Sequence record: NC_104190.1
Source: Escherichia phage IME178
Length of the DNA stretch: 64,000 nt
Reading direction: 5' to 3' (one strand)
The notes beneath the pieces were generated by a model, which made no database searches, had not been told where the DNA came from, and saw only the letters and a program-made list of their open reading frames with translations. Of this stretch, positions 16,947 through 45,486 are shown one piece after another. A program made the position numbers and the translations under genes. Numbering within the stretch: position 1 is the first letter of the stretch; every line of letters begins with the position of its first letter.

Positions 16947-17261
16947 TTACAGGTCGGGGCGTTCATCTTCTAAACAGCCTGAGCTGATTCCTTCTCCGAA
17001 TCCTACAAAGCCATCAAATTCATCATTTGAGATGCCCATAATCATCGCTTCCATTTTCCTGATCTCCGAGGTTTTCATGCCTGCTTTACTATTCTTATAG
17101 TACTTGCGAGGGTTCCCACACATCCAACAAGAACAGATGCAAGGAGTAGTAGTGATAATACCTAACCGCTTAGGGCTTTCTTCATGTGGAAAGACTGTCC
17201 AGTACTTCTTGCGGTTGTTCTTTACACGTTGCCTGTGATGACGTCTTAATGCTCGATCCAC
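16947..17261 (-). CDS. Cys-rich hypothetical protein (104 aa)
   Basis: PCICSCWMC cysteine cluster. Confidence 0.45.
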   Translation of the reverse strand: MDRALRRHHRQRVKNNRKKYWTVFPHEESPKRLGIITTTPCICSCWMCGNPRKYYKNSKAGMKTSEIRKMEAMIMGISNDEFDGFVGFGEGISSGCLEDERPDL

Positions 17262-17342
17262 ACATTTCTCCTAAAACTTGGGAGATAAACGGAGTTTGCT
17301 CGACTACCTTGCGTAGCTGGGAGAAATCGTACCCAAACCCCA

Positions 17343-17711
17343 TTACATCGCCTGAGTAAATGTACGACTAATAACGTCGTTCTGTTGTTCACGAGTCAGT
17401 GCATTAAATCGAACAGCGTACCCTGAAACACGGATAGTTAATTGAGGGTATTTTTCAGGATGTTTCTGCGCATCCAAAAGCTGATCACGGCTTAATACAT
17501 TGACATTTAGGTGCTGACCACCTTCGATTTGAGGAACCACTTCCACATCTACAATGCGAAAGGCCTCAGGGTCAAAGTGAGGTGTGATACCTTCTAGATC
17601 TTCAACTAGAACTTTCTGTTTAAGTTCACCATTATCGGAATATAGCTGAATGATCTGATTATTATGAACAATATTAATTACGCCAGATTTAAGGTTTTGA
17701 TATGCTTTCAT
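17343..17711 (-). CDS. grcA: autonomous glycyl radical cofactor (GrcA/YfiD-like)
   Basis: C-terminus [10 protein letters not shown]...[17 protein letters not shown]...TFT matches the glycyl-radical domain of E. coli GrcA and PFL. Confidence 0.8.
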
Positions 17712-17753
17712 TAGATCTCCCCGATGTTAGAATTTGGCTCAGCTATTTATTCT

Positions 17754-17985: not shown

Positions 17986-18061
17986 TGGTAGTTAGTAGTG
18001 GATTTGAACCACTGTAGTCGCTCCGTATGAAGGAGGTGCATAACCACTCTGCCAACTAACT
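17986..18061 (-). tRNA. tRNA with CAU anticodon (Met or Ile2)
   Basis: Hand-folded cloverleaf, acceptor AGTTAGT/ACTAACT, loop TTCATAC, encoded CCA. Confidence 0.65.
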
Positions 18062-18157
18062 ATTATGTTTTACTAGACTAAGTAAGTATTCTTTATACTC
18101 TTTAGACCAATTAGCTTTTTTAAACTTTCCTGGACGCATAGTCTTAATTCCTAAATT

Positions 18158-18234
18158 TGGTACTCCGGGAGGGATTTAAACCCCCGATCTCTCGGTTATC
18201 AGCCGAGTGCTTTAGATCGCTAAGCTACCGAAGC
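18158..18234 (-). tRNA. tRNA-Ile (anticodon GAU)
   Basis: Hand-folded: anticodon stem CTCGG/CCGAG, loop CTGATAA, encoded CCA. Confidence 0.7.
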
Positions 18235-18235
18235 A

Positions 18236-18463
18236 TTAACATTTTGCAGCAGAACGTTTGCCATTTCTAGGTGCACCTGGAAGTCGTGCACGTTCTGTCA
18301 TTCTTCGCTTAATCTTTGAGATATTATCTAGTGTTTGTTCTTCAGGCTTAATACCTGAAACACTACACCACTGATTACCATCCCATGCGGTAATGATCAT
18401 AACACCATTACTCATGATCTTTTCTGTAAAAGTAATCCTCATTATAGCAACTCGTCTAAGCAA
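18236..18463 (-). CDS. hypothetical protein (75 aa)
   Basis: Small ORF between tRNA genes. Confidence 0.35.
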   Translation of the reverse strand: MLRRVAIMRITFTEKIMSNGVMIITAWDGNQWCSVSGIKPEEQTLDNISKIKRRMTERARLPGAPRNGKRSAAKC

Positions 18464-18735
18464 GAGGTATATTTAAGTTTACCATCTTTATCTACTTTGA
18501 TTTCGACTTCCGCTCGTGGTACTTGACGAACTACACCATGAATCATCTTATAGCGAATGCCTTTAGCTGGTTCACGCTCTTTTGGAAATACTTGCTTAAC
18601 CGTTACTACCTTAAAACCCTCACGCGGTGTTAACACTACTACTTGATCACCTTCTTTGATCTTCCAAGAGCCAGGAAATTCGTAAGTATAGCGTTGACCA
18701 CCAGTTTGGAACACAACAGAAAGATAACGTTTCAT
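18442..18735 (-). CDS. hypothetical protein (97 aa)
   Basis: ORF downstream of promoter motif. Confidence 0.45.
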   Translation of the reverse strand: MKRYLSVVFQTGGQRYTYEFPGSWKIKEGDQVVVLTPREGFKVVTVKQVFPKEREPAKGIRYKMIHGVVRQVPRAEVEIKVDKDGKLKYTSCLDELL

Positions 18736-18744
18736 TTGGCTTCC

Positions 18745-18800
18745 CTCTCATTAATTTATATAAATATTATAACAATAAATAAGAGAGAAAGCAAATGAAT
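18745..18800 (-). promoter_or_regulatory. T5-type sigma70 promoter
   Basis: Minus-strand TTGCTT, 17 bp, TATAAT (18766-18771), conserved leader. Confidence 0.5.
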
Positions 18801-18802
18801 TT

Positions 18803-18970
18803 TTAATAAAGTTTAGTCACTTCATAAACTATACTACGAGATTCTTTATTACGTTCTATTAAATTAGCATATGCTTTTTCAGCTTCATTTTTAGTATTAA
18901 AGTCTATAACGTGGGAGGTATTAGCTCTGTTTGATTGACTATACCAGATAACTACTAGGAGTTTAAACAT
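18803..18970 (-). CDS. hypothetical protein
   Basis: Start moved to internal Met so the ORF does not overlap the adjacent tRNA. Confidence 0.35.
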   Translation of the reverse strand: MFKLLVVIWYSQSNRANTSHVIDFNTKNEAEKAYANLIERNKESRSIVYEVTKLY

Positions 18971-18984
18971 AATAGTCCTTAAAT

Positions 18985-19071
18985 TGGTGCTGGGCACAGG
19001 ATTCGAACCTGCAATGGGATTACTCCTCCTGATTACAAATCAGGTGCATTCAACCATTCTGCCAACCCAGC
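18985..19071 (-). tRNA. tRNA with long variable arm; anticodon ambiguous (UGU or GUA)
   Basis: Acceptor GCTGGGT/GCCCAGC, T-arm GGTTCGAATCC, 15-nt variable region, loop TTTGTAA. Confidence 0.55.
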
Positions 19072-19236
19072 AAAACCCGTTATTTCAACGGGATTTCTTT
19101 TTCAATAACAGGAGACTTGTCAGCCATAACTGTCATTGCCATTTGTTGTAGAAATTCAAAAGTGAAGGCTACACGTTCTTCACCAATCTCTACTTCTACA
19201 CGTTTCTTTTGTTTATCAATCTTGACTTTTAGGTTA

Positions 19237-19488
19237 TCAGCCATTAGAGAGTACAGTACTGGTAGTTGGCAATACTACAGATGGAGCAACAGTGTTTAAA
19301 TGCTTTCTCCAGTCTAGGTTAAATTGTTTTCGAAACTCTTCATAAGGTTCTTCTGGATAAAAGCTAAAACCTCCTTTCTCATCATTCAGGATAACGGAGC
19401 CGTCAGTTTGTTCGTATGCTCGGTATGTTTCTCCAATAATAATAACTCGTTTATCGGTACTTTTATTACGAAACTCAAAAACGTGCAT
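19237..19488 (-). CDS. hypothetical protein (83 aa)
   Basis: ORF between tRNA genes. Confidence 0.4.
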   Translation of the reverse strand: MHVFEFRNKSTDKRVIIIGETYRAYEQTDGSVILNDEKGGFSFYPEEPYEEFRKQFNLDWRKHLNTVAPSVVLPTTSTVLSNG

Positions 19489-19504
19489 AACGTTTCCTTA
19501 AAGT

Positions 19505-19580
19505 TGGAGCGGCTAGAGGGAATCGAACCCTACTCAGCGAGGCTTGGAAGGCCTGCGACACAACCCGTGTGCTTAACCGC
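19505..19580 (-). tRNA. tRNA-Gly (anticodon UCC), tentative
   Basis: Hand-folded: acceptor GCGGTTA/TAGCCGC, loop CTTCCAA, encoded CCA. Confidence 0.55.
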
Positions 19581-19588
19581 TTATTATT

Positions 19589-19664
19589 TGGCTGGAGAAG
19601 GAGGAATCGAACCTACCATTAACGGAGTCAAAGGCCGTTGTGCTAACCGTTACACTACTCTCCA
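19589..19664 (-). tRNA. tRNA-Gln (anticodon UUG)
   Basis: Starts with U and ends CCAGCCA like E. coli tRNA-Gln; loop CTTTGAC. Confidence 0.6.
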
Positions 19665-19670
19665 ATTATT

Positions 19671-19746
19671 TGGCTGGGATGCCACGGATCGAACGTGGAA
19701 CCTTCGGAGTCAGAGGCCGACGATCTGCCAATTGATCTACATCCCA
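19671..19746 (-). tRNA. tRNA-Gln (anticodon CUG)
   Basis: Acceptor TGGGATG/CATCCCA, loop CTCTGAC, 3-prime end GCCA. Confidence 0.6.
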
Positions 19747-19758
19747 ATAATTTTTATT

Positions 19759-19953
19759 CTACGGAAAAATTGTTGTTGGCTCAGATTCTTCCAAACGTTT
19801 GCCTTCATGATCTACTCGAATAACTCCGCATCCCTCGCAAATCACAACAGCACCGTAGCCTTCTTTAACTTCAGCTTCTGTAATCAAACCAGAAAGATCA
19901 CCAGTATCTCTGCCCCACATATCAATGGAGCATTGTTTGCAGAAATCAGCCAT
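19759..19953 (-). CDS. Cys-rich hypothetical protein (64 aa)
   Basis: CxxC pairs (CKQC, CEGC). Confidence 0.4.
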   Translation of the reverse strand: MADFCKQCSIDMWGRDTGDLSGLITEAEVKEGYGAVVICEGCGVIRVDHEGKRLEESEPTTIFP

Positions 19954-19977
19954 ATTTATTTCCTATTTAAGTTAATT

Positions 19978-20054
19978 TGGGGTGGCTAGTGGAATTCGAA
20001 TCCACATAGGCCTGATTCACAATCAGGATCATTAACCAATTATGATATAGCCAC
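19978..20054 (-). tRNA. tRNA-His (anticodon GUG)
   Basis: Acceptor GTGGCTA/TAGCCAC, anticodon arm CCTGA-TTGTGAA-TCAGG, encoded CCA. Confidence 0.7.
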
Positions 20055-20420
20055 AATTGAAAACTCGCAGGGTTAGCGAAACCTTCCTCAATTAGCATGT
20101 TCTAGAATACTAATCAAGTTATCTCCTATTGCGCGCAGCTCAAGACGAGTACGAATTTTCAATTGTGGCGGCTCTCAGAAACTCTTCTACTCTAGTCTTA
20201 GCAGCTTACTCCCGAACGCATGTCGGGGAAGTCTTACCAAGAGCATCAAATAGCACCGTTACACTTTGAGCCATAGATGTATCAAGAAGCAGAAGGACTT
20301 GAACCTTCACGAGATAGACCATTTATCTCAGCCGCTTTATGAGGTATGTTGCAGGGAGTGGATGTTCCCTATAAACCTTTTAGGCAGCCCCGTCTACCGA
20401 TTCCGGCATACTTCAAGATT

Positions 20421-20515
20421 TGGAGGTAGGTAAGGGGATCGAACCCTTACACCGTATCACTACGATCAACCGATTTCAAGTCGGAGTCCAGCGCCAGCCA
20501 TTGGATTGACCTACC
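20421..20515 (-). tRNA. tRNA-Ser (anticodon UGA), type II
   Basis: Acceptor GGTAGGT/ACCTACC, loop CTTGAAA, long variable arm, encoded CCA. Confidence 0.65.
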
Positions 20516-20527
20516 ATATAAATTGTT

Positions 20528-20618
20528 TGGCGGAAGAGGAGAGATTTGAACTCTCAAGCCGTTTTACCAGTCAGCCACTTTCCAAGCGGTTTTCGTCGCC
20601 AATTCGATTTGCTCTTCC
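20528..20618 (-). tRNA. type II tRNA, probably Ser (anticodon GGA)
   Basis: Acceptor GGAAGAG/CTCTTCC, T-arm GAGAGTTCAAATCTCTC, long variable arm. Confidence 0.55.
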
Positions 20619-20654
20619 AATAATAAGATGATGCCTCTATCACACCAGGCAGTT

Positions 20655-20730
20655 ACGCCCCGCTGGGATTCGAACCCATTAAAACAGCTCAACCGAGATA
20701 GTAGGTTTAATTTACTCTGACCATCAAATT
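20655..20730 (-). other. tRNA-like element, possible pseudo-tRNA
   Basis: Perfect T-arm-like GGGTTCGAATCCC but no acceptor stem could be paired by hand. Confidence 0.3.
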
Positions 20731-20807
20731 TGGTGCGTGACAAGGGATTCGAACCCTCAAAACCCGACTTCTAAGGACGGTATGTATGCCCATTCCATCA
20801 ATCACGC
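20731..20807 (-). tRNA. tRNA with UAG anticodon loop (Leu-type) but short variable arm
   Basis: Acceptor GCGTGAT/GTCACGC, loop CTTAGAA, 77 nt with CCA; one T-T mismatch in anticodon stem. Confidence 0.5.
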
Positions 20808-20812
20808 GTATT

Positions 20813-20891
20813 TGGTGGAGAATAACGGAATCGAACCGTTCTGATGTCCTCGGTGCAAGCGAGGTGTCCACTCCATGCAGACCCATTCCCC
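20813..20891 (-). tRNA. tRNA-Ala (anticodon UGC)
   Basis: Anticodon arm CCTCG-CTTGCAC-CGAGG, encoded CCA. Confidence 0.65.
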
Positions 20892-21150
20892 AAATTCTTT
20901 AGTTTACTAAGGCTATTAGCTCGGCGTAACTACAGCACCTTCGCTTAGAGCGGAAGGAACTACGTCATCTCGCAAACCCAATACACTATTCAGTTGCCGC
21001 TGAATCTAGTGGACCAATCTAGAACTTCTCCCGAATCGTAGGGATCGTGCTTTTTGGCAGCCAGTCCTAGGTCGAGCTAATACCTTAGTGAACTATGATG
21101 AGGATTTCTCCTCATCAATTTATATAAATATTATAACAAGAAATTAAGCA

Positions 21151-21510
21151 TCAAGCAAGTACATTTTTGCAGACTTCTTGTATTTCCTTAACATCGCTAA
21201 TGAAAAGGTAATCGGAACTTCCAGAGTGCATACTAGACATTAGTACACCACTATCTGGTGCATCTTCTTTTAACGTAATGCCTAACCAGAACTCGGCAAA
21301 ACTAGGTGTTACCTCACCTTGACTTGCCTTGAATACATCGGCTTCTGTGATCTCCTGACCAGTAGAAAGTCCCATGTACGGTACGTTCAGATCAATATCT
21401 TTGTAGAACTCAGCTAAATCTTGTTCGAAGTCCCAACCTTTAGAGATAGCGAACTCCATTGTCACATGACCGAAATAACCTTGAATCTTGCTTGATAATT
21501 GCATTTGCAA
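21151..21510 (-). CDS. hypothetical protein (119 aa)
   Basis: ORF between tRNA blocks, promoter motif upstream. Confidence 0.45.
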   Translation of the reverse strand: MQMQLSSKIQGYFGHVTMEFAISKGWDFEQDLAEFYKDIDLNVPYMGLSTGQEITEADVFKASQGEVTPSFAEFWLGITLKEDAPDSGVLMSSMHSGSSDYLFISDVKEIQEVCKNVLA

Positions 21511-21529
21511 TTCCTTATTTTGAGTTAAT

Positions 21530-21603
21530 TGGTACCCGGTGATAGAATCGAACTATTTCAACCGCCATGTAAAGACGGGGTTCTCCCATTAAACTAACCG
21601 AGC
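21530..21603 (-). tRNA. tRNA-Val (anticodon UAC)
   Basis: Anticodon arm CCGTC-TTTACAT-GGCGG, encoded CCA. Confidence 0.6.
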
Positions 21604-21607
21604 AAAT

Positions 21608-21686
21608 TGGTAGATCGCCTGGGACTTGAACCCAGAACCTTCCGATTAAAAGTCGGATGCTACTAAACCTATTGAGCTAGCGATCT
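21608..21686 (-). tRNA. tRNA-Lys (anticodon UUU)
   Basis: Anticodon arm TCCGA-CTTTTAA-TCGGA, T-arm GGGTTCAAGTCCC, CCA. Confidence 0.65.
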
Positions 21687-21687
21687 A

Positions 21688-21855
21688 TTAGTAACCATTG
21701 TATACTTCTTTAATAGAGTGAACTTTCAAGTAAGGGTGATTAGTACTAAACTCTGCCATTACTTCATCCCAATTTCTACCATAATGAGCAAGTAAGGATT
21801 TTGATGTATTCTTACCTAAGCGTTTGTCACTTACTACTAATCGAAATACTTTCAT
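21688..21855 (-). CDS. small hypothetical protein (about 55 aa)
   Basis: ATG with GAGGAT RBS between tRNA genes; below the ORF-track size cutoff. Confidence 0.3.
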   Translation of the reverse strand: MKVFRLVVSDKRLGKNTSKSLLAHYGRNWDEVMAEFSTNHPYLKVHSIKEVYNGY

Positions 21856-21875
21856 TTCGAAATCCTCTATTAAAA

Positions 21876-21952
21876 TGGAAGCGGGTGCAGGAATCGAACC
21901 TACCTCTTTCTAGCTTATGAGACTAGCGATCTCTACCAGAGATCTAACCCGC
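21876..21952 (-). tRNA. tRNA with CAU anticodon (Met or Ile2)
   Basis: Anticodon arm CTAGT-CTCATAA-GCTAG, encoded CCA. Confidence 0.6.
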
Positions 21953-21959
21953 AATTGTT

Positions 21960-22037
21960 TGGTCTCCGTGGGAGGATTTGAACCCCCGACCCTATCGCCC
22001 CAAACGAAACGCTCTGGCCAAACTGAGCTACACGGAG
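21960..22037 (-). tRNA. tRNA-Pro (anticodon UGG), tentative
   Basis: D-arm TAGCTCAGTTTGG, acceptor CTCCGTG/CACGGAG, loop TTTGGGG. Confidence 0.55.
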
Positions 22038-22041
22038 AATA

Positions 22042-22200
22042 TTATTTCTTCAACCACAACAAAGATAAGCCAAGCATACTAAAGCCACTAACTAATCCGA
22101 TACATTTTTCTTCTATAGTAAAAGTATCTAGATTAAATGCTGTTATAGCTATTGGCATACACCATAATGCCATAAAAACTTGAGCTATCTTGTGTTTCAT
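22042..22200 (-). CDS. small hydrophobic protein (52 aa)
   Basis: ATG with AGAAGGAAAG RBS and conserved promoter/leader at 22205-22270. Confidence 0.35.
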   Translation of the reverse strand: MKHKIAQVFMALWCMPIAITAFNLDTFTIEEKCIGLVSGFSMLGLSLLWLKK

Positions 22201-22653
22201 TTTGCTTTCCTTCTCTTCACTTTATAAAATATATTATACAGATAATTAAGAGAAATAGCAAATGAATTTTTAATAAATTTACTTATTGTGTAGGCCACCT
22301 GGAGGCTACCAACCCCACGGCTGACAAAGAAGTTTGCGAGACCTCTCTTAAATGCCAGAATAGACCCGCCGATCTATCGGAACCTACATAATAAGTAAAC
22401 TTTATAGTGTCATTCTAGACAGGACTCGAACCTATTATCACTTGTGCGGACTTACGAGAACCATTCTTTCACTCGAATCGAACGAGCTTCTGCCCTAGCC
22501 AAGCTGGTTTCCCCATCAACCACGCTAGAATGTTTGATTGTTTTCAGTGCAAGAGTCCGAGTCTTGGACACGACCGCTTTGCAAGTACATAGGCAGCTTA
22601 TCATGAGTCAGCACTTCCGAATTGCTAGCTCCGTGTTCTGCACTGAAATTTTA

Positions 22654-23001
22654 TTAGTTTAACCTTAAAGTATTATCTACTTCACCATTAATTGTTCGGC
22701 ATTCCTCTGGAATTGCTGGAGTAGCCTTGTATTCCCACCACTCAGCTCCATCATATTCCCCACGTTCTAGCCAGGTTCCATCGGCAAACCATACATTACC
22801 ATAAAGTAGTTGTCCACCATAACCAGAATCATACTCAAAGTCTAGGTTATTAAGAAAATCCCCAATATCTTCTTCTGTATACCCCAGAGGTAATACCCAA
22901 ACTTTTTTGTCCCCATAATACCCGAATTCTATTTTAATACACTTAACTTCAGAATTAGTATTTTTTAAGGCAAGTAACAACTCTTCTTTAGCATTACGCA
23001 T
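22654..23001 (-). CDS. hypothetical protein (115 aa)
   Basis: ORF between tRNA blocks. Confidence 0.45.
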   Translation of the reverse strand: MRNAKEELLLALKNTNSEVKCIKIEFGYYGDKKVWVLPLGYTEEDIGDFLNNLDFEYDSGYGGQLLYGNVWFADGTWLERGEYDGAEWWEYKATPAIPEECRTINGEVDNTLRLN

Positions 23002-23027
23002 AGTATATTTCTCGTGCTAGTTTAGTT

Positions 23028-23103
23028 TGGTACACCCACTAGGACTTGAACCTAGAACCCTCCGCTTAAGAGGCGGTAGCTCTAACCATTGAGCTATGGA
23101 TGT
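23028..23103 (-). tRNA. tRNA-Lys (anticodon CUU), tentative
   Basis: D-stem GCTC/GAGC, loop CTCTTAA, T-arm CTAGGTTCAAGTCCTAG, CCA. Confidence 0.55.
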
Positions 23104-23281
23104 ATTAAATTACTTTTTCCAGTTCATCAGCTATGGCTTTGATTTTTTCAAAGTTTACATCACTAATAATGATACCTTCCAGTGACAGAGATATTCTAGC
23201 ATTTTTTCGTAGCAGATTCTTTTATCTGCTCTATCTCTTCTGGAGTAAACTCTCTACGTTCCATAGCTAACCTACATTATT

Positions 23282-23358
23282 TGGCGCGACCGATGGGATT
23301 CGAACCCACATTCTCTCCCGTGACAGGGGAGTACCCTTACCAAGCCAGCCCCGGTCGC
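23282..23358 (-). tRNA. tRNA-Asp (anticodon GUC)
   Basis: Acceptor GCGACCG/CGGTCGC, anticodon arm CTCCC-CTGTCAC-GGGAG, CCA. Confidence 0.7.
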
Positions 23359-23367
23359 ATAATTCAT

Positions 23368-23553
23368 TTACTCAGCTTTGAGTTTTTCAATAGCTGCATT
23401 AAGTTCTTTAAGAAACTCTTTCCGTACATTAAGCTCTCGAATACTCATTAAAAGATCAGCCTTTCGAGCTTCAATATCTTTTTGTCGGCACTTAATGTTA
23501 TTAGCTGTGTTATCACGATGAACTTCTAGCTGTGCAATTACATTCTTGGACAT
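23368..23553 (-). CDS. coiled-coil hypothetical protein (61 aa)
   Basis: Small charged helical ORF. Confidence 0.4.
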   Translation of the reverse strand: MSKNVIAQLEVHRDNTANNIKCRQKDIEARKADLLMSIRELNVRKEFLKELNAAIEKLKAE

Positions 23554-23655
23554 GCTTGTTTCCTCAGTTATTAATGAAAATGGTATCTGTGGCTGAATTC
23601 GATATCAGCAATGATAGCTGGTTGGCTACCGGTTTACTTAACTCTACACAGAATT

Positions 23656-23738
23656 TGGCGGGCCGTGTAGGATTCGAACCTACGTTGTCTTTCGACATGG
23701 ATTAACAGTCCACCGCCAAACCGCTTGGCTAACGACCC
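23656..23738 (-). tRNA. tRNA with GUU anticodon (Asn-type) and extended variable arm
   Basis: Acceptor GGGTCGT/ACGGCCC, loop CTGTTAA, 13-nt variable region, CCA. Confidence 0.55.
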
Positions 23739-23890
23739 TAAATTTATATTGCTGACTAGGATTTTCACCTAGACGGAGTTAGCACCGTAGCGTGTAGCGG
23801 CATACCTCTCCAAACCGTGCCTCATCTTTCAATTACGGAGACAGTGTTCCTACGCGTGCCTGAATTGATTTAACAATTCTTTCAGCAAAT

Positions 23891-23966
23891 TGGACGACCG
23901 CATGAGATTTGAACTCACATAAAAAGGATTTGCAATCCTTCGCCTAAGCCATTCAGCCAACGGTCG
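23891..23966 (-). tRNA. tRNA-Cys (anticodon GCA)
   Basis: Anticodon arm AAGGA-TTGCAAA-TCCTT, encoded CCA. Confidence 0.65.
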
Positions 23967-23971
23967 ATTTA

Positions 23972-24259
23972 TTATCTTTCATAATGTATAGCTACATGGT
24001 CGGAACCACAATTGCTACACACTTTCTTACCTGTTTTAGAGTAGTAATCTTGATCACCACATTCATAACAGATACATAATTCTTTTTCTTGTTTTTCGAG
24101 ATCTTCAAATTCTAGATCATTGAAGTCCCCTAGAGTACGGGTGTAAAACCCATCTCCTGAGTCATAGCCTGATTTACCACAATCACACATTTTAAATTCA
24201 CGAAGATGTGTGAAAATGTGCTTGGAACCACAACACTTAAATCTAACTAATCGTTTCAT
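23972..24259 (-). CDS. zinc-ribbon hypothetical protein (95 aa)
   Basis: Several CxxC pairs (CDCG, CYECG, CSNCG). Confidence 0.45.
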   Translation of the reverse strand: MKRLVRFKCCGSKHIFTHLREFKMCDCGKSGYDSGDGFYTRTLGDFNDLEFEDLEKQEKELCICYECGDQDYYSKTGKKVCSNCGSDHVAIHYER

Positions 24260-24498
24260 TTAACACGCTCCGGTAGATCTTCTAGTTTATATTCAGTAGC
24301 CACATTAGCAGCATCTAAAAGTAATCCCATGTGTTTAAGGATTTTAGTGATAGATTCGCCTTCGGCTTCTTCTACGAAAGAACGTAAATGAACAAAGTCA
24401 ATTCCACCGTCCATACCAGAGAAAATATTTAGTAAGCGAAGCATTACCAGCTTACGTTCATTCAATTCTTGTTCTGTCATGTTGCTTCTCCAGTTCAA
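24256..24498 (-). CDS. hypothetical protein (80 aa)
   Basis: ORF downstream of promoter motif at 24500-24545. Confidence 0.45.
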   Translation of the reverse strand: MNWRSNMTEQELNERKLVMLRLLNIFSGMDGGIDFVHLRSFVEEAEGESITKILKHMGLLLDAANVATEYKLEDLPERVK

Positions 24499-24547
24499 TT
24501 TATGTAATTATTATACAGAACTTTTAGAAACTAAGCAACTACATTTT

Positions 24548-24826
24548 TTAAGAATTTGATGCCTTTTTTTTTTTTTTTTTCTTCTTATACTTCCACGTTA
24601 ATGGATTCTGTCGATTGTGAACGCTTGAGATCTTTGTCTCGTCAAAGTTCTTCAATACCATGTAATCACAAGATAATTGTTCTAATGGAATGTGATCACC
24701 GTCAAAAGCGTATACATAAGGCTGTTGACTAGCACTATAATGATAGACTTTGTTAATTCTACGTTTCAGCAACTTATCCGCGCAGTAAATAAAGAAGTTT
24801 TCAGGATGCATCAGCAGCTCCCTCAA
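24548..24826 (-). CDS. hypothetical protein with C-terminal poly-Lys encoded by an A17 tract
   Basis: ORF runs through a 17-nt homopolymer giving KYKKKKKKKK before the stop. Confidence 0.4.
   Translation of the reverse strand: MRELLMHPENFFIYCADKLLKRRINKVYHYSASQQPYVYAFDGDHIPLEQLSCDYMVLKNFDETKISSVHNRQNPLTWKYKKKKKKKKASNS
24564..24580. repeat. 17-nt T/A homopolymer
   Basis: Uninterrupted T17 on the plus strand inside the 3-prime end of a minus-strand ORF. Confidence 0.9.
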
Positions 24827-24828
24827 TT

Positions 24829-24903
24829 TGGTGCACCCTGTTCGTATCGAACGAACCTCTCAAGCTCTTCAGGCAAGCGCTAATCCATCTCAGCTAAAGG
24901 TGC
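24829..24903 (-). tRNA. tRNA-like gene, possibly Phe (anticodon GAA) with mismatched anticodon stem
   Basis: Good acceptor and T-arm (GTTCG-TTCGATA-CGAAC); loop CTGAAGA; two U-U mismatches in anticodon stem. Confidence 0.4.
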
Positions 24904-24909
24904 AAATTT

Positions 24910-24980
24910 TGGCAGGGGTAAAGGTATTCGAAACCTTTTCATGGGTTTTGGAGGCCCATTTGCAACCTATGCGTACCCCA
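24910..24980 (-). tRNA. tRNA-Trp (anticodon CCA)
   Basis: T-arm AAGGT-TTCGAAT-ACCTT, loop CTCCAAA, encoded CCA. Confidence 0.55.
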
Positions 24981-24989
24981 ATTATTAAT

Positions 24990-25064
24990 TGGCACACCCA
25001 ACGAGGATCGAACTCGTGTTCCCACTGTGAAAGAGTGATGTCCTAACCGCTAGACGATAGGTGC
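24990..25064 (-). tRNA. tRNA-Glu (anticodon UUC)
   Basis: Anticodon arm TCACT-CTTTCAC-AGTGG, T-arm ACGAG-TTCGATC-CTCGT, CCA. Confidence 0.6.
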
Positions 25065-25071
25065 ATTAATT

Positions 25072-25159
25072 TGGTGGGCGTTAATGGAGTCGAACCACTC
25101 GAGTCGCAATGACCAGGGATTTACAATCCCCTCCGCTACCACTTACGGAATAAACGCCC
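25072..25159 (-). tRNA. tRNA-Tyr (anticodon GUA), type II
   Basis: Acceptor GGGCGTT/AACGCCC, anticodon arm GGGGA-TTGTAAA-TCCCT, long variable arm, CCA. Confidence 0.7.
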
Positions 25160-25289
25160 ATATTTAGAAGTATTCAAAAATTTTCATTTAAACACTTTTA
25201 AATATGTTTCCAAATTAGATAAATATTATACCAAGTTTTAAGGCACTGAGCAAGTCAAATTTTAAAGAACTTGCTCAGTACTGTATTAG

Positions 25290-25565
25290 TTAGTCGAACT
25301 TAGGAGTGACAGTTAAGGAGAATGGAAGTTCGAAAACTTCTTCACCCTCATCACTAACAGTAATTACACGGCCTTTAAGTTCAGACATTGAAATATCAAT
25401 ATCAGCTTTTGCATCTGGAGCCATTCCAGCTTCAACACATTTAGCTTTAACTTCCGGCAGAAGTTCTACATCGTAGAAATAAAGCCATTCAATCTCACCT
25501 TCCCAGCCTTCCCAGGATTTACAGATTGCACTTTCAATACCAGTTGCTATAACACGATTTTGCAT
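25290..25565 (-). CDS. hypothetical acidic protein (91 aa)
   Basis: ORF downstream of promoter motif. Confidence 0.45.
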   Translation of the reverse strand: MQNRVIATGIESAICKSWEGWEGEIEWLYFYDVELLPEVKAKCVEAGMAPDAKADIDISMSELKGRVITVSDEGEEVFELPFSLTVTPKFD

Positions 25566-25655
25566 TAGTTAACTCCTTCATCAATTTATATAACTATTAT
25601 ATCAGAAATTTAAAGCAAAAGGCAAGTACATTTTTAAAAATTCTATTTGGAGGAG

Positions 25656-25862
25656 CTAAACTCCAGATTCTTCAGCCAAGTCTAGACTAATAAGAGATAT
25701 AGCCATAATTGCTGCTGCGTGCTCTTTTTCTCCAGTCTCTTTAGCTAGAGTTATAATATCAAGAATTTGCTTATGAAAGTCTGCAACCTCTTGAGTCATA
25801 CCTGCTTCAGCAATCATGCCTTTAAGCATGAAACGTTGTGCGGTAATTTCAGGATTAGCCAT
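25656..25862 (-). CDS. hypothetical protein (68 aa)
   Basis: Small ORF. Confidence 0.4.
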   Translation of the reverse strand: MANPEITAQRFMLKGMIAEAGMTQEVADFHKQILDIITLAKETGEKEHAAAIMAISLISLDLAEESGV

Positions 25863-26037
25863 GTTGTTTCTCCAGTTTCATCTTTAATAGTCTACAAATA
25901 AAATCAATGTCTTCATCCGTGCCTAAATCTCTATCTTCAAGAGTTGCCTTGAAGTTTTTAGTCAATTCCATGAGGATAACTTCTCTAGAACGACGTGTTG
26001 GCGGAGGTGGAGGTCTATACATCTTATTTCCTTAATT

Positions 26038-26114
26038 TGGTAGGGGTGGTGGGATTCGAACCCACAAAACCTGAATTTTAAGTCCAGTACCTATGCCAAT
26101 TCGATTACACCCCC
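26038..26114 (-). tRNA. tRNA with UAA anticodon loop (Leu-type) but short variable arm
   Basis: Acceptor GGGGGTG/CACCCCT, anticodon arm CTGGA-CTTAAAA-TTCAG, T-arm GTGGG-TTCGAAT-CCCAC, 5-nt variable loop, CCA. Confidence 0.55.
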
Positions 26115-26215
26115 ATGTAATCAGTTTATTAGTTGATACATATTATAGCCTAGTGAAAATCCTACTACTAGTCCCACAAACCAACCAATATAATAATCTT
26201 TTAGTTTCACAGGTA

Positions 26216-26401
26216 TTATCCTCTTTCAATATCTAGAGAAATACCACAGCTAGGATTAATACCTGTACCCTTGCAATTTGGGCAAACCCAGATATTGCAA
26301 AAAGTATCTCCTGCTTCTGCATCAGAACTTTCACCGATCCCCCTACACTCAGGGCAGGCACATTCTTCTAGCTCTTGCTTGAGTTCTTGAAACTTAGACA
26401 T
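26216..26401 (-). CDS. zinc-ribbon hypothetical protein (61 aa)
   Basis: CPEC...CPNC cysteine pairs. Confidence 0.4.
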   Translation of the reverse strand: MSKFQELKQELEECACPECRGIGESSDAEAGDTFCNIWVCPNCKGTGINPSCGISLDIERG

Positions 26402-26410
26402 ATAGTCTCC

Positions 26411-26599
26411 TTAGTCAATTACTTTTGAGGCTTCAAGGTAATCGATATAGTGTACGTTTTCTACCGTAATCATATAATCTGCCACTTTATCCATAGCTTG
26501 GGCTTCAGAGGTAGCTCTGGCTAACCTATATCCTTTTTTATATTCATCAGGGTATTCTCTATCTTGAATAAACACAACATAAACTATGTATAATTCCAC
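26411..26599 (-). CDS. hypothetical protein (about 62 aa, GTG start)
   Basis: Track ORF trimmed to GTG 26599 with AGGGGA RBS so it no longer overlaps two tRNA genes. Confidence 0.35.
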   Translation of the reverse strand: MELYIVYVVFIQDREYPDEYKKGYRLARATSEAQAMDKVADYMITVENVHYIDYLEASKVID

Positions 26600-26619
26600 T
26601 TGTAATCCCCTAATTAAGT

Positions 26620-26697
26620 TGGTGGCTCCCCGAGGATTCGAACCTACGTACCTTCCGGTTATGAGCCGGGTGCTCATACCATATGAGCTTGAGAACC
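26620..26697 (-). tRNA. tRNA with CAU anticodon (Met, fMet or Ile2)
   Basis: D-stem GCTC/GAGC, anticodon arm CCGG-CTCATAA-CCGG, CCA; T-stem weak. Confidence 0.5.
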
Positions 26698-26703
26698 AAA
26701 ATC

Positions 26704-26792
26704 TGGCGGAAGAAGTGGGAATCGAACCCACAAGGCTATATTTCAAACCGACAGATTAGCAATCTGCTGCAATACCGTTATGCTATTCTTCC
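26704..26792 (-). tRNA. tRNA-Ser (anticodon GCU), type II
   Basis: Acceptor GGAAGAA/TTCTTCC, loop TTGCTAA, long variable arm, CCA. Confidence 0.65.
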
Positions 26793-26813
26793 GAATTTAT
26801 AAGATATATTATA

Positions 26814-27332
26814 TTAGAAATTTAGCTTCATAGCAAGAAAATTTTTCAAGTTTTCGGTAGACATCTCATCCACATCTACGGGAGAAACAAAGCCGTTTAA
26901 TTTTCTAGCAAATTTTTCACCATCGGGATCATTGTCACCAATAGCTATCAATTTAAAAGGTAGTAATTTCAGTTGCTTTAATAATGCTTTTCCCGGAGAA
27001 GAACCCAACATTGCTAGGGCGGGATAACCAGCGTTATGTAACGCAACTGCCTTAAATACAGATTCAGCAATCAATACTACTTTTTCATCTCCATTGAGAG
27101 TTTCTAGCCCCCATACACACTGTGTAGTAGAATGGGTAAAATATTTAGCTTCAAATGGGCACTTACCCTGCCTTTTGGGAGCAGAGGGATTATAAGTCTG
27201 ATAGCCTCTCAACATCCCAGAGAAGTCATACAACGGGACTGTTAGCCATCCTTCCGGACTTAACCAGCAATGATATTTATCTGTATCAAATCCCCTAGAT
27301 AAGAGGTGCTGTATTAGCTCATCAACATTCAT
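26814..27332 (-). CDS. Toprim-domain protein
   Basis: Start moved to ATG 27332 (AGGAGA RBS); conserved Glu in VVLIAES and DxD in IAIGDNDPDG. Confidence 0.55.
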   Translation of the reverse strand: MNVDELIQHLLSRGFDTDKYHCWLSPEGWLTVPLYDFSGMLRGYQTYNPSAPKRQGKCPFEAKYFTHSTTQCVWGLETLNGDEKVVLIAESVFKAVALHNAGYPALAMLGSSPGKALLKQLKLLPFKLIAIGDNDPDGEKFARKLNGFVSPVDVDEMSTENLKNFLAMKLNF

Positions 27333-27371
27333 ATTTGATCTCCTAGTTAGATTTACAAATACATTATATAG

Positions 27372-27406
27372 AAAAGCCCTGCGCTCTCCAGGGAACGCAG
27401 GGCTCA
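27372..27406 (-). terminator. rho-independent terminator
   Basis: Hairpin GCCCTGCG/CGCAGGGC followed by a T-run on the minus strand. Confidence 0.55.
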
Positions 27407-27428
27407 CTTCAGATGTTACGTGCGGATA

Positions 27429-28376
27429 TTATTTATTACGCATATCCATGATCATTTGACCATCGTAGCCAGTACCTACCACAGTCTGAGGCACACCACC
27501 TTGATACTTCTGAGCACGGATCATTTCAACTTCCAGTTGCTTCCAGCGAATCATCTCAGGAGTAATGGTACGTTGCAATGCGGCGTTAGCTTCAGCTTCT
27601 TTCTTAGCTGCGTACAATTTAGCATCTGCGTCACGTTCATTAGCAATAGCTTGGTTGTTGCGAGCTTCACGATCTGCTTCTGCTTGTTTAACTTTTTGCT
27701 GTGCTTCCTGTTCAACACGAGCTAATTCAGCTTTAGCAGCATTAACTTGCTCTTCACGAACTTTGGTATTCTGTACCTGTTCCATGATTACCGGTGGCAA
27801 AGTAATATCCTGAAGGAACACCTGCTTAACTGTGTAACCATATGGGCGTGCATACTCTTCAACTTCCTGTTGAATTGCAGTTTGCAATTGAGCCTGAATT
27901 TTAGCATCAAACAAATCTTGTGCTTTAGGTACAGACTTACCAAACTCACGAATAGTAGACAGTAATTTTTCAGTTACATATTTGTCTAACGCTTGATCCT
28001 GAGTACCTGCATTAATACGGTTAATCGGTGCTTTAGAACCATCAAACTGCAACATAACAGTCAGGTCAACAGTGGATTTAAACTTATCCTGACTAGGAAC
28101 CTGAAGTTTATCTAATTTCAGAGCAATATCTTTAGTACTAAAAGTATCAAAAGAAGCAAAAGGATTTACAATATGAAAGCCCGGCAATACAGGGTTAGGA
28201 TCAACTTTACCCAAGAAAGTCTGGGTCTTAACAGTACCGTCTTGAACAACGGTATAGGAGTTAAGAGCTAGAACTAAACCTGCTAAACCAACTACAGCAC
28301 CAATACCCCAACGTTTAATAGTGCGAATTACTTTTTGCTCAGAAGTCAATTCTTTCATATTTTTAGTATTAAACAT
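27429..28376 (-). CDS. SPFH/band-7 (prohibitin/HflC-like) membrane protein
   Basis: N-terminal transmembrane anchor, SPFH-like core, long Ala/Glu/Gln-rich coiled coil. Confidence 0.65.
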   Translation of the reverse strand: MFNTKNMKELTSEQKVIRTIKRWGIGAVVGLAGLVLALNSYTVVQDGTVKTQTFLGKVDPNPVLPGFHIVNPFASFDTFSTKDIALKLDKLQVPSQDKFKSTVDLTVMLQFDGSKAPINRINAGTQDQALDKYVTEKLLSTIREFGKSVPKAQDLFDAKIQAQLQTAIQQEVEEYARPYGYTVKQVFLQDITLPPVIMEQVQNTKVREEQVNAAKAELARVEQEAQQKVKQAEADREARNNQAIANERDADAKLYAAKKEAEANAALQRTITPEMIRWKQLEVEMIRAQKYQGGVPQTVVGTGYDGQMIMDMRNK

Positions 28377-28410
28377 ATATTTCCTTTGTTTTAGCTACAG
28401 TTAATAAAAT

Positions 28411-28485
28411 TGGCCGAGGTGACAGGATTCGAACCTGCATAAAGGAATTTAGAAGACTCCTGCCTCTCCCTTAGACTACACCCCG
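28411..28485 (-). tRNA. tRNA-Arg (anticodon UCU)
   Basis: T-arm GCAGG-TTCGAAT-CCTGT, anticodon arm AGGAGT-CTTCTAA-ATTCCT, CCA. Confidence 0.65.
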
Positions 28486-37689: not shown

Positions 37690-37764
37690 TGATTTTCCTC
37701 TTTCTCACTATTTCAGGAATATTATAGCAAATCTGGTAGCGATTAGCAAGTAAAATTTCAAAGA

Positions 37765-37795
37765 AAAAGGAGACCCGAAGATCTCCTTGTTTTTA
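37765..37795 (-). terminator. intergenic hairpin terminator (T-runs on both sides)
   Basis: Hairpin AAGGAGA/TCTCCTT between nrdA and nrdB. Confidence 0.45.
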
Positions 37796-40126: not shown

Positions 40127-40268
40127 TTGGCTTTCCTTTTTATAGTTATCAGGATTTAAGGAATATTCTACTTTATTATCGGTCATTAGGCAAATAAAAT
40201 TTTCTGATAGAAAAGGCCCGAGTATTTTCATACCCAGGCCCTGTATATTACCAGTCTAGCTTTTTAGC

Positions 40269-41596: not shown

Positions 41597-43471
41597 ATGA
41601 ATCGCAATGAAGAACTAAAGTATAAAGAAATGCAGGCGTTAATTAGAAACTGCAAAGAGATTATCGAAGGGTCAGCAGATGAAGAGCTGCTGTTTAATAA
41701 TGCCAATAAACCCTCAGAACGTTTCCCTACACAAAGGGATATGCTTGCAGGTGAATTGAGTAAATATCTGATTCTAGAAGAAATGCCAATTCAGATTCGA
41801 AATGCTCATATGATTGGGGATATTCATTTCCATGATGCTGATTATGCTGCATTAGGCATGACTAACTGTTGTCTGGTAGCTCTGGAAGATATGTTGAAGA
41901 ATGGTATGAAGGTTGGTAATGCTGAAATTAGCACTCCAAACTCTATCACTACTGCGGCGGCTATTACTGCTCAGATTATCACTCAAGTTAGCTCCCATCA
42001 GTATGGTGGTACTTCTGTAGACCGCCTTGATGAAGTATTAGCCCCTTATGTTCGTAAATCCTATGACAAAAATCATGCGTTTGCAAAACGTTGGACTAAG
42101 GATGAAGCCAAAGCATCCGTAATGGCTACGGAAATGACTGAGAAAGAAGTCTATGACGCTTGTCAGGGTTTAGAATATGAAATCAATACCATGTTCAACT
42201 CTAATGGTCAGAGTCCATTTATTACCTTTGGTTTTGGTCTAGGAACTTCTTGGGAGGCACGTCTAGTACAGAAAGCAATACTAAAAGTACGTATGGATGG
42301 TTTAGGTATCAATAAACGTACAGCTATCTTCCCGAAACTAGTATTTGTGCTTCGTGATGGCGTTAACATGAAACCAGGAGATGTTAATTATGACATCAAG
42401 AAGTTAGCTATGAAATGTACGTCTGAACGTATGTATCCAGATTATATCAGCTATGATAAGGTTGTGGAAGTTACTGGAGACTATAAAGTTTCTATGGGCT
42501 GCCGTTCATTCCTAGCTGCTACAGAAGATGGTGAAACTGCTGGTCGTAATAACTTAGGTGTTGTTTCTGTAAACTTGCCTAGAATTGCTATCGAAGCTGA
42601 AGGAAATATTGACCTATTCTTTGATTTGCTTGAGCTACGTGTGGATACAGCGTTAAAAGCATTGGAGTGGAGAGTTGATCGCTTAAAATACATCCAAGCT
42701 AAAGCTGCACCCATCCTCTATATGTCAGGAGCCTTTGGGTTACGCTTGGGGCCTGATGAGTATGTATTCGATCATTTCTATAACCGTGCTTCTGTATCTC
42801 TAGGGTATATTGGTTGCCATGAAATGCTACAGTTCATGTTTGGCAAAGATGTAGACACAATGTCCGAGACCTGCATCAAGTTTGTTCAGCGTGTATTGCA
42901 GTACATGCGGGATAGAGTCGATCAGAAGAAGGAAGAAACTAAGTTAGGTTATAGCCTGTATGCTACACCATCAGAATCCCTATGTGATCGTTTTTGTCGT
43001 CTAGACCGTGAATATTTCCCGGAGCATGAAGATATTCTATCCAAAGGATACTATACTAATTCTCATCACCTTGATGTGGAACGTAAAGTTGCTCCCAATG
43101 TGAAATTTGATTATGAGTCTAACTTTACGCCGATCGCTTCTGGTGGATGTATTTCCTATGTAGAGCTACCAGATATGAAACGATTCCCAGATGCACTGGA
43201 ATGGGTTATTAATTATGCTGCTAGTAAAGTTCATTACTTCGGTATTAATACTCCAGTGGATTCTTGTGGTAAATGTGGATTCTTAGGTGAAACAATAGCA
43301 TCCGAAGATGGATTTAAGTGCCCTATCTGTGGTAATCATGACCCCGAAACTCTTGAAGTAACTCGTCGAGTTTGTGGGTATCTTGGAAATCCTGGTGCTC
43401 GTCCATTTAACCCAGGCAAACAGCATGAGGTTATGGGCAGGGTGAAACATCAGGATATTCGAGCTAAATAA
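41597..43471 (+). CDS. nrdD: anaerobic ribonucleoside-triphosphate reductase (class III)
   Basis: C-terminal glycyl-radical motif RVCGYLG; Cys-rich zinc site CGKCG...CPICG. Confidence 0.85.
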   Translation: MNRNEELKYKEMQALIRNCKEIIEGSADEELLFNNANKPSERFPTQRDMLAGELSKYLILEEMPIQIRNAHMIGDIHFHDADYAALGMTNCCLVALEDMLKNGMKVGNAEISTPNSITTAAAITAQIITQVSSHQYGGTSVDRLDEVLAPYVRKSYDKNHAFAKRWTKDEAKASVMATEMTEKEVYDACQGLEYEINTMFNSNGQSPFITFGFGLGTSWEARLVQKAILKVRMDGLGINKRTAIFPKLVFVLRDGVNMKPGDVNYDIKKLAMKCTSERMYPDYISYDKVVEVTGDYKVSMGCRSFLAATEDGETAGRNNLGVVSVNLPRIAIEAEGNIDLFFDLLELRVDTALKALEWRVDRLKYIQAKAAPILYMSGAFGLRLGPDEYVFDHFYNRASVSLGYIGCHEMLQFMFGKDVDTMSETCIKFVQRVLQYMRDRVDQKKEETKLGYSLYATPSESLCDRFCRLDREYFPEHEDILSKGYYTNSHHLDVERKVAPNVKFDYESNFTPIASGGCISYVELPDMKRFPDALEWVINYAASKVHYFGINTPVDSCGKCGFLGETIASEDGFKCPICGNHDPETLEVTRRVCGYLGNPGARPFNPGKQHEVMGRVKHQDIRAK

Positions 43472-45474: not shown

Positions 45475-45486
45475 ATATGTTCAATA

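What the first reader, a model, noticed from the sequence alone, without database searches (positions are those of the whole stretch)
17343..17711. Phage-encoded GrcA/YfiD-like glycyl-radical spare part
The C-terminal 60 residues closely match the glycyl-radical domain of E. coli GrcA and pyruvate formate-lyase ([14 protein letters not shown]). A T4 homolog has been described as an autonomous glycyl-radical cofactor; here it accompanies the glycyl-radical enzyme NrdD, suggesting the phage maintains host anaerobic metabolism.
Basis: partly seen in the sequence, partly recalled or inferred. Interest (0 to 1): 0.55.

Follow-up and report, generated by a model that had tools for sequence, protein, structure and literature searches.

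The report
T5-like phage GrcA spare-part gene
This is a real, well-conserved T5-like phage copy of the small GrcA/YfiD 'spare part' protein that repairs oxygen-damaged host pyruvate formate-lyase; the family and its T4 counterpart are already described, so the finding is correct but ordinary.

Summary
Window 17343-17711 (minus strand) is a 122-aa ORF with a Shine-Dalgarno site. Its last 62 residues are a glycyl-radical domain (Pfam Gly_radical E=4e-18; E. coli YfiD/GrcA structure 6OWR E=3e-29; PFL E=6e-27).

The window is a Tequintavirus (T5-like phage). The same gene is in 432 T5-like records, some already annotated 'autonomous glycyl radical cofactor GrcA'. Homologs are in 1581 phage records, including T4 vs.6 (Y06I), which was shown in 2001 to rescue oxygen-cleaved PFL.

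The protein has the exact PFL-activase loop RVSGYAV. It keeps 45 of the 48 C-terminal positions shared by E. coli GrcA and PflB. It is under strong purifying selection (dN/dS 0.07). Its N-terminal half is homologous to GrcA N-termini through the T4-type.

It shows no similarity to the phage's own NrdD (41597-43471, 24 kb away, loop RVCGYLG). No activase is encoded in the window or in the related phage Es2.

Most likely it is activated by host PflA and plugs into damaged host PFL. The only open idea is a link to NrdD through formate supply. Verdict: already known, low interest.

The parts
17343..17711 (-). grcA-like gene, 122 codons plus TAA stop
   Evidence: ORF list; Pfam, NCBIfam, PHROG and PDB matches; dN/dS 0.07 among 30 distinct T5-like alleles
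17532..17711 (-). N-terminal half (residues 1-60), a divergent GrcA-type N-terminal region. In YfiD the equivalent residues 1-60 aid binding to cleaved PFL and radical installation.
   Evidence: hhalign of N-terminal halves only: T5-type vs T4/jumbo-type 94.5% probability, E=8e-8; T4/jumbo-type vs bacterial GrcA 96.7%, E=5e-10. dN/dS 0.11. AF2 predicts four beta strands, pLDDT about 77. Role of YfiD 1-60: PMC8683613.
17346..17531 (-). C-terminal glycyl-radical domain (residues 61-122), equivalent to YfiD 61-127 and PFL 693-759
   Evidence: PDB alignments; Foldseek top hits 6OWR and PFL 2PFL/1MZO/1CM5; 45 of 48 positions shared by E. coli GrcA and PflB are kept; dN/dS 0.018
17412..17432 (-). 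Glycyl-radical loop RVSGYAV (residues 94-100); radical glycine G97 at 17421-17423
   Evidence: Sequence. It is identical to the heptapeptide on which PFL-AE installs a radical, whereas PFL-AE does not act on the RNR loop RVCGYLG (PMC13450708).
17717..17722 (-). Shine-Dalgarno GGGGAG, 5 nt before the ATG
   Evidence: Read directly from the sequence
17182..17343 (-). Context: 53-aa ORF, stop/start-coupled to the gene (TAATG); unknown function; found in 30 of 30 T5-like loci
   Evidence: phrog_31464
41597..43471 (+). Context, not part of the gene: phage NrdD (class III RNR, E. coli/T4 type, no ATP-cone) with its own glycyl loop RVCGYLG (G594)
   Evidence: Pfam NRDD E=7e-172; NCBIfam NF006732 843 bits against cut-off 657; T4 NrdD 1H78 E=2e-177; loop

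Best explanation
[quoted passage not shown] After infection the 122-aa protein is made from phage DNA. When oxygen has cleaved the host's pyruvate formate-lyase at Gly734, the protein's C-terminal domain (residues 61-122) takes the place of the lost PFL radical domain. Its N-terminal half helps it bind the damaged enzyme. The host activase PflA (radical SAM) puts a radical on Gly97, which is passed to PFL Cys419, and pyruvate is again converted to acetyl-CoA and formate. The phage encodes no activase and relies on the host's. What is shown: the gene, its domain identity, the loop, the conservation and the absence of an activase. What is inferred from homology with YfiD and T4 Y06I: activation by PflA and rescue of PFL. 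A further inference is the benefit to the phage. T5-type phages destroy host DNA, so a damaged 760-aa host enzyme cannot be re-made, but it can be repaired with a 122-aa part.
For: Domain identity. The loop RVSGYAV is identical to the PFL-AE substrate peptide. The protein keeps 45 of the 48 positions common to E. coli GrcA and PflB, and the three changes are E>D, S>A and S>A. This holds although synonymous sites are near saturation relative to E. coli grcA and pflB (24-29 of 62 third positions identical) and GC content is phage-like, so selection maintains the sequence, not recent transfer. dN/dS is 0.07 overall, 0.018 for the C-terminal half and 0.11 for the N-terminal half. The protein is homologous over its full length to T4 Vs.6/Y06I, and Y06I and YfiD are the two validated spare parts (PMC8683613). 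YfiD residues 1-60 matter for binding and radical installation. GrcA rescues PflB G734A in vivo (PMC12338860). There is no PflA or NrdG homolog in the window or in the whole genome of the close relative Es2. T5 degrades host DNA early (abstract of bioRxiv 10.64898/2026.04.02.716235).
Against: No experiment exists for the T5-type protein in the literature I could search. It scores below the curated cut-off of the NCBIfam GrcA equivalog (118.9 against 170), although validated T4 Y06I does too (153.3). Its N-terminal half does not match bacterial GrcA N-termini directly, only over the last 14 residues. AF2 predicts this half as a beta sheet, whereas YfiD 1-60 is disordered in NMR, so binding details may differ. 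Timing of expression and conditions of benefit are unknown.
Confidence: 0.8

Rival explanations
1. Same molecule, different purpose: the selected benefit is to keep host PFL producing formate, the reductant of the phage's own formate-type class III ribonucleotide reductase (NrdD). The spare part would then protect phage dNTP synthesis at low oxygen rather than host energy metabolism in general.
For: The window's NrdD is of the E. coli/T4 type, which belongs to the formate-using NrdD1 group (PMC4493059; Mulliez 1995 cited there). The 2026 GRE review suggests that PFL formate may be consumed by formate-dependent class III RNR. Every phage group seen with a GrcA-like gene also has NrdD: T5-like, T4-like, KVP40-like Vibrio phages, 350-kb jumbo coliphages and Aeromonas phages, plus RaK2. 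For every host genus listed in both searches, NrdD-positive records outnumber GrcA-positive records.
Against: Co-occurrence was checked only at the level of phage groups and counts, not genome by genome. All these phages are large virulent phages that carry many nucleotide-metabolism genes anyway, so the association may be indirect. The two genes are 24 kb apart on opposite strands. NrdD is much more widespread (2907 records) than the spare part (1581).
Confidence: 0.3
2. It is a spare part for the phage's own glycyl-radical enzyme NrdD, not for host PFL.
For: Both are glycyl-radical proteins in one genome. Authors have speculated that spare parts may exist for other glycyl-radical enzymes (PMC8683613).
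Against: BLASTP finds no similarity between the protein and NrdD (best E=3.4). The loops differ: RVSGYAV against RVCGYLG. PFL-AE does not act on the RNR loop. The domain is 77-79% identical to PFL and GrcA. It also lacks the Cys-rich stretch (CGKCG ... CPICG) that precedes the NrdD glycyl loop.
Confidence: 0.02
3. It is a decoy or inhibitor. By competing for PflA or by occupying PFL it would shut down or redirect host pyruvate metabolism.
For: Nothing direct. The N-terminal half is the most divergent of the family.
Against: The radical glycine and the whole loop are intact, and 45 of 48 shared positions are kept. A blocker would not need a working radical site. The T4 homolog restores PFL activity.
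Confidence: 0.04
4. It is a non-functional captured fragment of host pflB or tdcE, as the database names 'pyruvate formate-lyase' and '2-ketobutyrate formate-lyase' might suggest.
For: The best DNA match in E. coli is the 3' end of pflB (74%). Many records carry these enzyme names.
Against: The protein has 122 aa and lacks the barrel with the catalytic Cys418/Cys419. TIGR01255 gives 86 bits against a cut-off of 994. The gene is intact in 30 of 30 loci and under strong purifying selection in both halves. It has a GrcA-type N-terminus and phage-like GC content.
Confidence: 0.02

Closest known systems
T4 Vs.6 = Y06I (autonomous glycyl radical cofactor of bacteriophage T4; Wagner et al. 2001)
   Same: It is a stand-alone protein of about 120 aa with the same architecture, 50% identical over the full length. 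It has the same MKAYQ start and a homologous N-terminal half, the identical radical loop, and 49/62 identity in the C-terminal domain. Both are in virulent phages that also encode NrdD.
   Different: The last 186 nt of T4's gene are 96% identical in DNA to E. coli grcA, which indicates recent exchange with the host. The T5-type is 68-73% identical with near-saturated third positions, which indicates an old phage gene. T4 encodes its own NrdG, while the T5-like phage Es2 and this window encode no activase. No flanking genes are shared. The T5-type has not been tested experimentally.
E. coli GrcA/YfiD (PDB 6OWR; TIGR04365; IPR011140)
   Same: Similar size (122 against 127 aa), the same domain boundary at residue 60/61, the loop RVSGYAV, and 48/62 identity in the radical domain. 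It is the top fold match.
   Different: The N-terminal half matches only indirectly, through the T4-type. The TIGR04365 score is below the curated cut-off. AF2 predicts an N-terminal beta sheet, whereas YfiD 1-60 is disordered. The gene is encoded by a virus.
E. coli pyruvate formate-lyase PflB, C-terminal residues 698-759
   Same: 49/62 identical, and the ending TFTQAM resembles PflB's TFTQSM. PflB gives the best DNA-level match.
   Different: It lacks the 690-residue catalytic barrel and Cys418/Cys419. It is not an enzyme on its own, so the names 'pyruvate formate-lyase' and '2-ketobutyrate formate-lyase' in records such as Es2 are misnomers.
Short spare parts GrcA2/GrcA3 (about 80 aa; NF008341, NF038360)
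   Same: They share the radical domain (116 and 90 bits). Short forms of 79-86 aa also occur on viral contigs (L040-L043).
   Different: They lack the 60-residue N-terminal region, and the scores are below their cut-offs (158 and 145).

Membership tests
[quoted passage not shown] | Small stand-alone protein of about 120-127 aa | tested here: met
   122 aa with its own SD site and stop codon
[quoted passage not shown] | C-terminal domain of about 62-67 aa that duplicates PFL 693-759 | tested here: met
   PDB 6OWR E=3e-29 and PFL E=6e-27; Foldseek top hits are 6OWR and PFL; 45 of 48 GrcA=PflB positions kept
[quoted passage not shown] | PFL-type glycyl loop RVSGYAV, the substrate of PFL-AE | tested here: met
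   Exact match at residues 94-100; peptide specificity from PMC13450708
[quoted passage not shown] | GrcA-type N-terminal region of about 60 residues | tested here: met
   Met transitively: T5-type N vs T4/jumbo-type N 94.5% probability, and T4/jumbo-type N vs bacterial GrcA N 96.7%. The direct T5-type vs bacterial comparison aligns only 14 residues at 30% probability.
[quoted passage not shown] | Score above the curated cut-off of NCBIfam TIGR04365 (170 bits) | tested here: not met
   118.9 bits. The cut-off also excludes validated T4 Y06I (153.3), while a bacterial GrcA scores 233. It therefore separates bacterial from phage versions, not function.
[quoted passage not shown] | Glycyl radical installed by PFL activase | not testable with these tools
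   Needs anaerobic biochemistry and EPR
[quoted passage not shown] | Restores activity to oxygen-cleaved PFL | not testable with these tools
   Shown only for YfiD and T4 Y06I (PMC8683613)
Pyruvate / 2-ketobutyrate formate-lyase (the name given in Es2 and many other records) | Barrel of about 760 aa with catalytic Cys418-Cys419; TIGR01255 score of at least 994 bits | tested here: not met
   Only profile positions 683-744 match, 85.7 bits; the protein is 122 aa
Class III RNR glycyl-radical domain (spare part for NrdD) | Similarity to the NrdD C-terminus, with the loop RVCGYLG | tested here: not met
   BLASTP E=3.4; loop RVSGYAV against RVCGYLG

The most novel reading that the evidence does not exclude
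The spare part and the phage NrdD may form one functional unit even though they are unlinked on the genome. After the phage destroys host DNA, the 122-aa protein would keep host PFL alive through oxygen exposure so that formate, the reductant of the phage's class III RNR, keeps flowing. Both phage glycyl-radical proteins would depend on two different host activases (PflA and NrdG), because the T5-type phage encodes neither. A secondary point is that T4's copy is a recent chimera with host grcA, while the T5-type is an old, independently maintained phage lineage.
Probability: 0.3. Interest if true: 0.5.

Novelty: already known. Interest (0 to 1): 0.2.

Why it matters
The finding matters mainly for annotation. 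Public records name the same gene pyruvate formate-lyase, 2-ketobutyrate formate-lyase, acetyltransferase-like, ribonucleotide reductase subunit, hypothetical protein or GrcA, and PHROG 1209 lists it as unknown function. The evidence here fixes the name as GrcA-like. Biologically it is a neat example of a virus repairing a large host enzyme with a small part instead of replacing it. If the formate link to NrdD held, it would explain why large virulent enterobacterial phages keep this gene. None of this opens a long-standing question.

Tried and rejected
- Search for a phage activase: I looked for CxxxCxxC motifs in all ORFs of the window and of the whole Es2 genome, and ran tblastn with E. coli PflA and RB18 NrdG. 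Nothing scored better than E=6. The only window motif hit is a 104-aa Cys-rich ORF (16947-17261), which is too small and matches no Pfam family.
- Conserved partner genes: BLASTP and tblastn of the T5-type neighbours against the T4 vs.8-vs.1 neighbourhood gave only weak, short matches (best E about 0.002, not followed up) and no shared gene order.
- Promoter and terminator scan around the gene: the number of promoter-like sites equals the chance expectation (9 found against 9.7 expected), so it is uninformative.
- Literature on the T5-type gene: none found in the held library. Three papers could not be read (PMC4246965, PMC9112899, PMC6754787). A search for T5 deletion mutants covering this region gave nothing usable.
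- Genome-by-genome co-occurrence with NrdD could not be done, because the search tools list at most 60 records. Only group-level and count-level comparison was possible.
It was redone with alignment A2.
- The predicted N-terminal sheet has no significant fold match outside the family.

Full report
Observation. Window 17343-17711 holds a 122-aa ORF on the minus strand, with the stop codon at 17343-17345. A GGGGAG Shine-Dalgarno site sits 5 nt upstream of the ATG (17717-17722). The stop codon overlaps the start of a 53-aa ORF (TAATG).

The similarity is far beyond chance. Pfam Gly_radical gives E=4.2e-18. The NMR structure of E. coli YfiD/GrcA (6OWR) gives E=2.8e-29 and E. coli PFL gives E=6e-27. 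PHROG 1209 gives E=5e-47 over the full length, and that family is labelled 'unknown function'.

What the window is. A 1-kb stretch around the gene is 100% identical to Escherichia phage Es2 (Demerecviridae, Tequintavirus), and 432 phage records match it at 80% identity or more. Over its whole length the window is a mosaic relative of Es2, 87-99% identical. The gene lies just downstream, in the direction of transcription, of a cluster of 22 tRNA genes, inside a long block of small minus-strand genes. A contig with the length of the T5 reference genome (121,750 bp) carries a 95% identical copy (L023).

Distribution. tblastn finds homologs in 1581 phage records. These include T5-like phages (90-100% identity), T4-like phages including T4 itself (Vs.6, 50% over the full length), Klebsiella, Aeromonas and Proteus myoviruses, and 345-355-kb jumbo phages. 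The protein search adds Vibrio phage and many bacterial GrcA proteins. Records name the gene inconsistently: pyruvate formate-lyase, 2-ketobutyrate formate-lyase, acetyltransferase-like, hypothetical, ribonucleotide reductase subunit. Several call it 'autonomous glycyl radical cofactor GrcA'.

Anatomy. An alignment of phage and bacterial members shows 43 invariant columns, all in the last 60 residues, and variable N-termini.

The C-terminal 62 residues are 48/62 identical to E. coli GrcA, 49/62 to PflB and 49/62 to T4 Vs.6. E. coli GrcA and PflB agree with each other at 48 positions. The phage protein keeps 45 of these, and the three changes are E>D, S>A and S>A. The radical loop RVSGYAV (G97) is exact.

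According to the 2026 review of glycyl radical enzymes, E. coli PFL activase installs a radical on this heptapeptide but not on the class III RNR loop RVCGYLG (PMC13450708).

An AlphaFold2 model (mean pLDDT 71.5) predicts the helix, beta-hairpin and helix of a glycyl-radical domain. It also predicts four N-terminal strands at pLDDT of about 77. Foldseek against the PDB puts 6OWR first and E. coli PFL next. Among predicted viral structures, an Aeromonas phage homolog aligns over the full length.

N-terminal half. In YfiD, residues 1-60 are disordered in NMR, and residues 61-127 duplicate PFL 693-759. Removing residues 1-60 lowers radical installation fourfold and weakens binding to cleaved PFL (PMC8683613). 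The phage protein has the same boundary at residue 60/61.

Profile-profile comparison of the N-terminal halves alone gave three results:
- T5-type against T4/jumbo-type: 94.5% probability, E=8e-8, 55 columns.
- T4/jumbo-type against bacterial GrcA: 96.7% probability, E=5e-10, 59 columns.
- T5-type against bacterial GrcA directly: only the last 14 residues align.

The protein is therefore a full-length GrcA homolog with the most divergent N-terminus of the three types.

Selection and age. Across 30 distinct T5-like alleles, dN/dS is 0.07 overall, 0.11 for residues 1-60 and 0.018 for residues 61-122. In DNA, the last 186 nt are only 68-73% identical to E. coli grcA and pflB, with 24-29 of 62 third codon positions identical. 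GC content is 39%, equal to that of the window. The near-identity of the protein to the host domain is therefore maintained by selection in an old phage gene, not by recent capture. By contrast, the last 186 nt of T4 vs.6 are 96% identical to E. coli grcA (59 of 62 third positions), so the T4 gene looks like a recent chimera.

Relation to NrdD. The window does encode NrdD at 41597-43471 (+). It matches Pfam NRDD at E=7e-172, carries its own Gly_radical domain, reaches 843 bits on the E. coli-type NCBIfam equivalog, and matches T4 NrdD at E=2e-177. It is 24 kb from the small gene and on the other strand. The two proteins share no detectable similarity, and NrdD's loop is RVCGYLG. The small protein is therefore not a spare part for NrdD.

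Neither the window nor the complete Es2 genome has a homolog of PflA or NrdG, whereas T4-type phages and RaK2 encode NrdG. This phage type thus carries two glycyl-radical proteins and must borrow two host activases.

Mechanism. The best-supported reading has the following steps:
- The protein is made early from phage DNA.
- It binds host PFL that oxygen has cleaved at Gly734.
- Host PflA places a radical on Gly97.
- The radical passes to PFL Cys419, and PFL works again.

The gene features are shown here. Activation and rescue are inferred from YfiD and T4 Y06I, which authors describe as the only two validated spare parts (PMC8683613), and from in-vivo rescue of PflB G734A by GrcA (PMC12338860). 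A plausible reason for a phage to carry it is that T5 degrades host DNA early. The host then cannot re-make PflB or GrcA, and a 122-aa part is a cheap repair.

Possible link to NrdD. E. coli and T4-type NrdD belong to the formate-using group (PMC4493059), and the GRE review notes that PFL formate may be consumed by such reductases. All phage groups in which I saw the spare part also have NrdD. For every host genus listed in both searches, NrdD-positive records outnumber spare-part-positive records. This is compatible with the spare part protecting the reductant supply of phage dNTP synthesis. However, the test is coarse, and such large virulent phages share many genes for other reasons.

Comparison with the known. 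The protein meets the structural criteria of the GrcA/YfiD/Y06I family. It fails only the curated NCBIfam score (118.9 against 170), which the validated T4 protein also fails (153.3). It is not a formate-lyase: 122 aa, with 86 bits against a cut-off of 994 for TIGR01255.

Verdict. The observation and the core interpretation are right. The family, its presence in phages, the function of the T4 member and even this gene's annotation in some T5-like records are already public. I found no paper on the T5-type protein itself. Interest is low. The formate coupling and the dependence on two host activases are the only points worth an experiment.

Noticed in passing
L004:7001-7363 (T4 vs.6) compared with L005:200-583 (E. 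coli grcA): T4 vs.6/Y06I looks chimeric. Its last 186 nt are 96% identical in DNA to E. coli grcA (59 of 62 third codon positions), while its N-terminal half is of the phage type. This suggests recent recombination with the host gene. The T5-type gene shows no such signal.
   Followed up: partly
window 16947-17261 (-): A 104-aa ORF with a GTG start has a Cys-rich motif (TTTPCICSCWMCGNPRK) and matches phrog_4499 over nearly the whole profile. Es2 annotates only its last 58 aa. It overlaps by 80 nt the 53-aa ORF 17182-17343 (phrog_31464). Both are present in 30 of 30 T5-like loci, and which reading frames are real is unresolved.
   Followed up: partly
window 1-64000 and whole Es2 genome (L001, L003, L007): The phage type encodes NrdD but no NrdG activase, unlike T4-type phages and RaK2. 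Its NrdD also lacks the N-terminal ATP-cone, since it aligns from position 87 of the 712-residue E. coli-type profile.
   Followed up: partly
window 37689-37796: nrdB (36544-37689) and nrdA (37796-40231) are adjacent here, whereas Es2 has a homing endonuclease gene between them. Overall the window is a mosaic, 87-99% identical to Es2, with several short unmatched gaps.
   Followed up: no
window 17986-28485 (-): ARAGORN finds a cluster of 22 tRNA genes on the minus strand immediately upstream (in transcription) of the 64-aa ORF and the grcA-like gene.
   Followed up: no
L012 and L033 (IMG/VR contig 2974601769, 110,901 bp): Two diverged copies of the gene (95% and 93% identical to the query) sit at the two ends of one viral contig. 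This could be an assembly of two related phages or an unusual terminal arrangement.
   Followed up: no
L040-L043 (IMG/VR contigs of 4-133 kb): Short stand-alone spare parts of 79-86 aa (GrcA2/GrcA3-like, with loops RVSGYAVNF or RVSGYCVAF) occur on other viral contigs. PHROG 21327 is a 760-position profile, which suggests that some phages carry full-length PFL.
   Followed up: no
window 44166-46302 (+): Downstream of NrdD lie a 271-aa ORF whose Es2 counterpart is annotated as a SIR2-family protein deacetylase (not checked with Pfam here), a HAD_SAK_2 domain protein, and two tandem paralogs with DUF7415.
   Followed up: no
P0033 (Citrobacter phage YZU-L1): A 67-aa N-terminally truncated version of the gene is annotated 'ribonucleotide reductase subunit'. 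This is either a mis-called start or a damaged copy, and another example of inconsistent naming.
   Followed up: no
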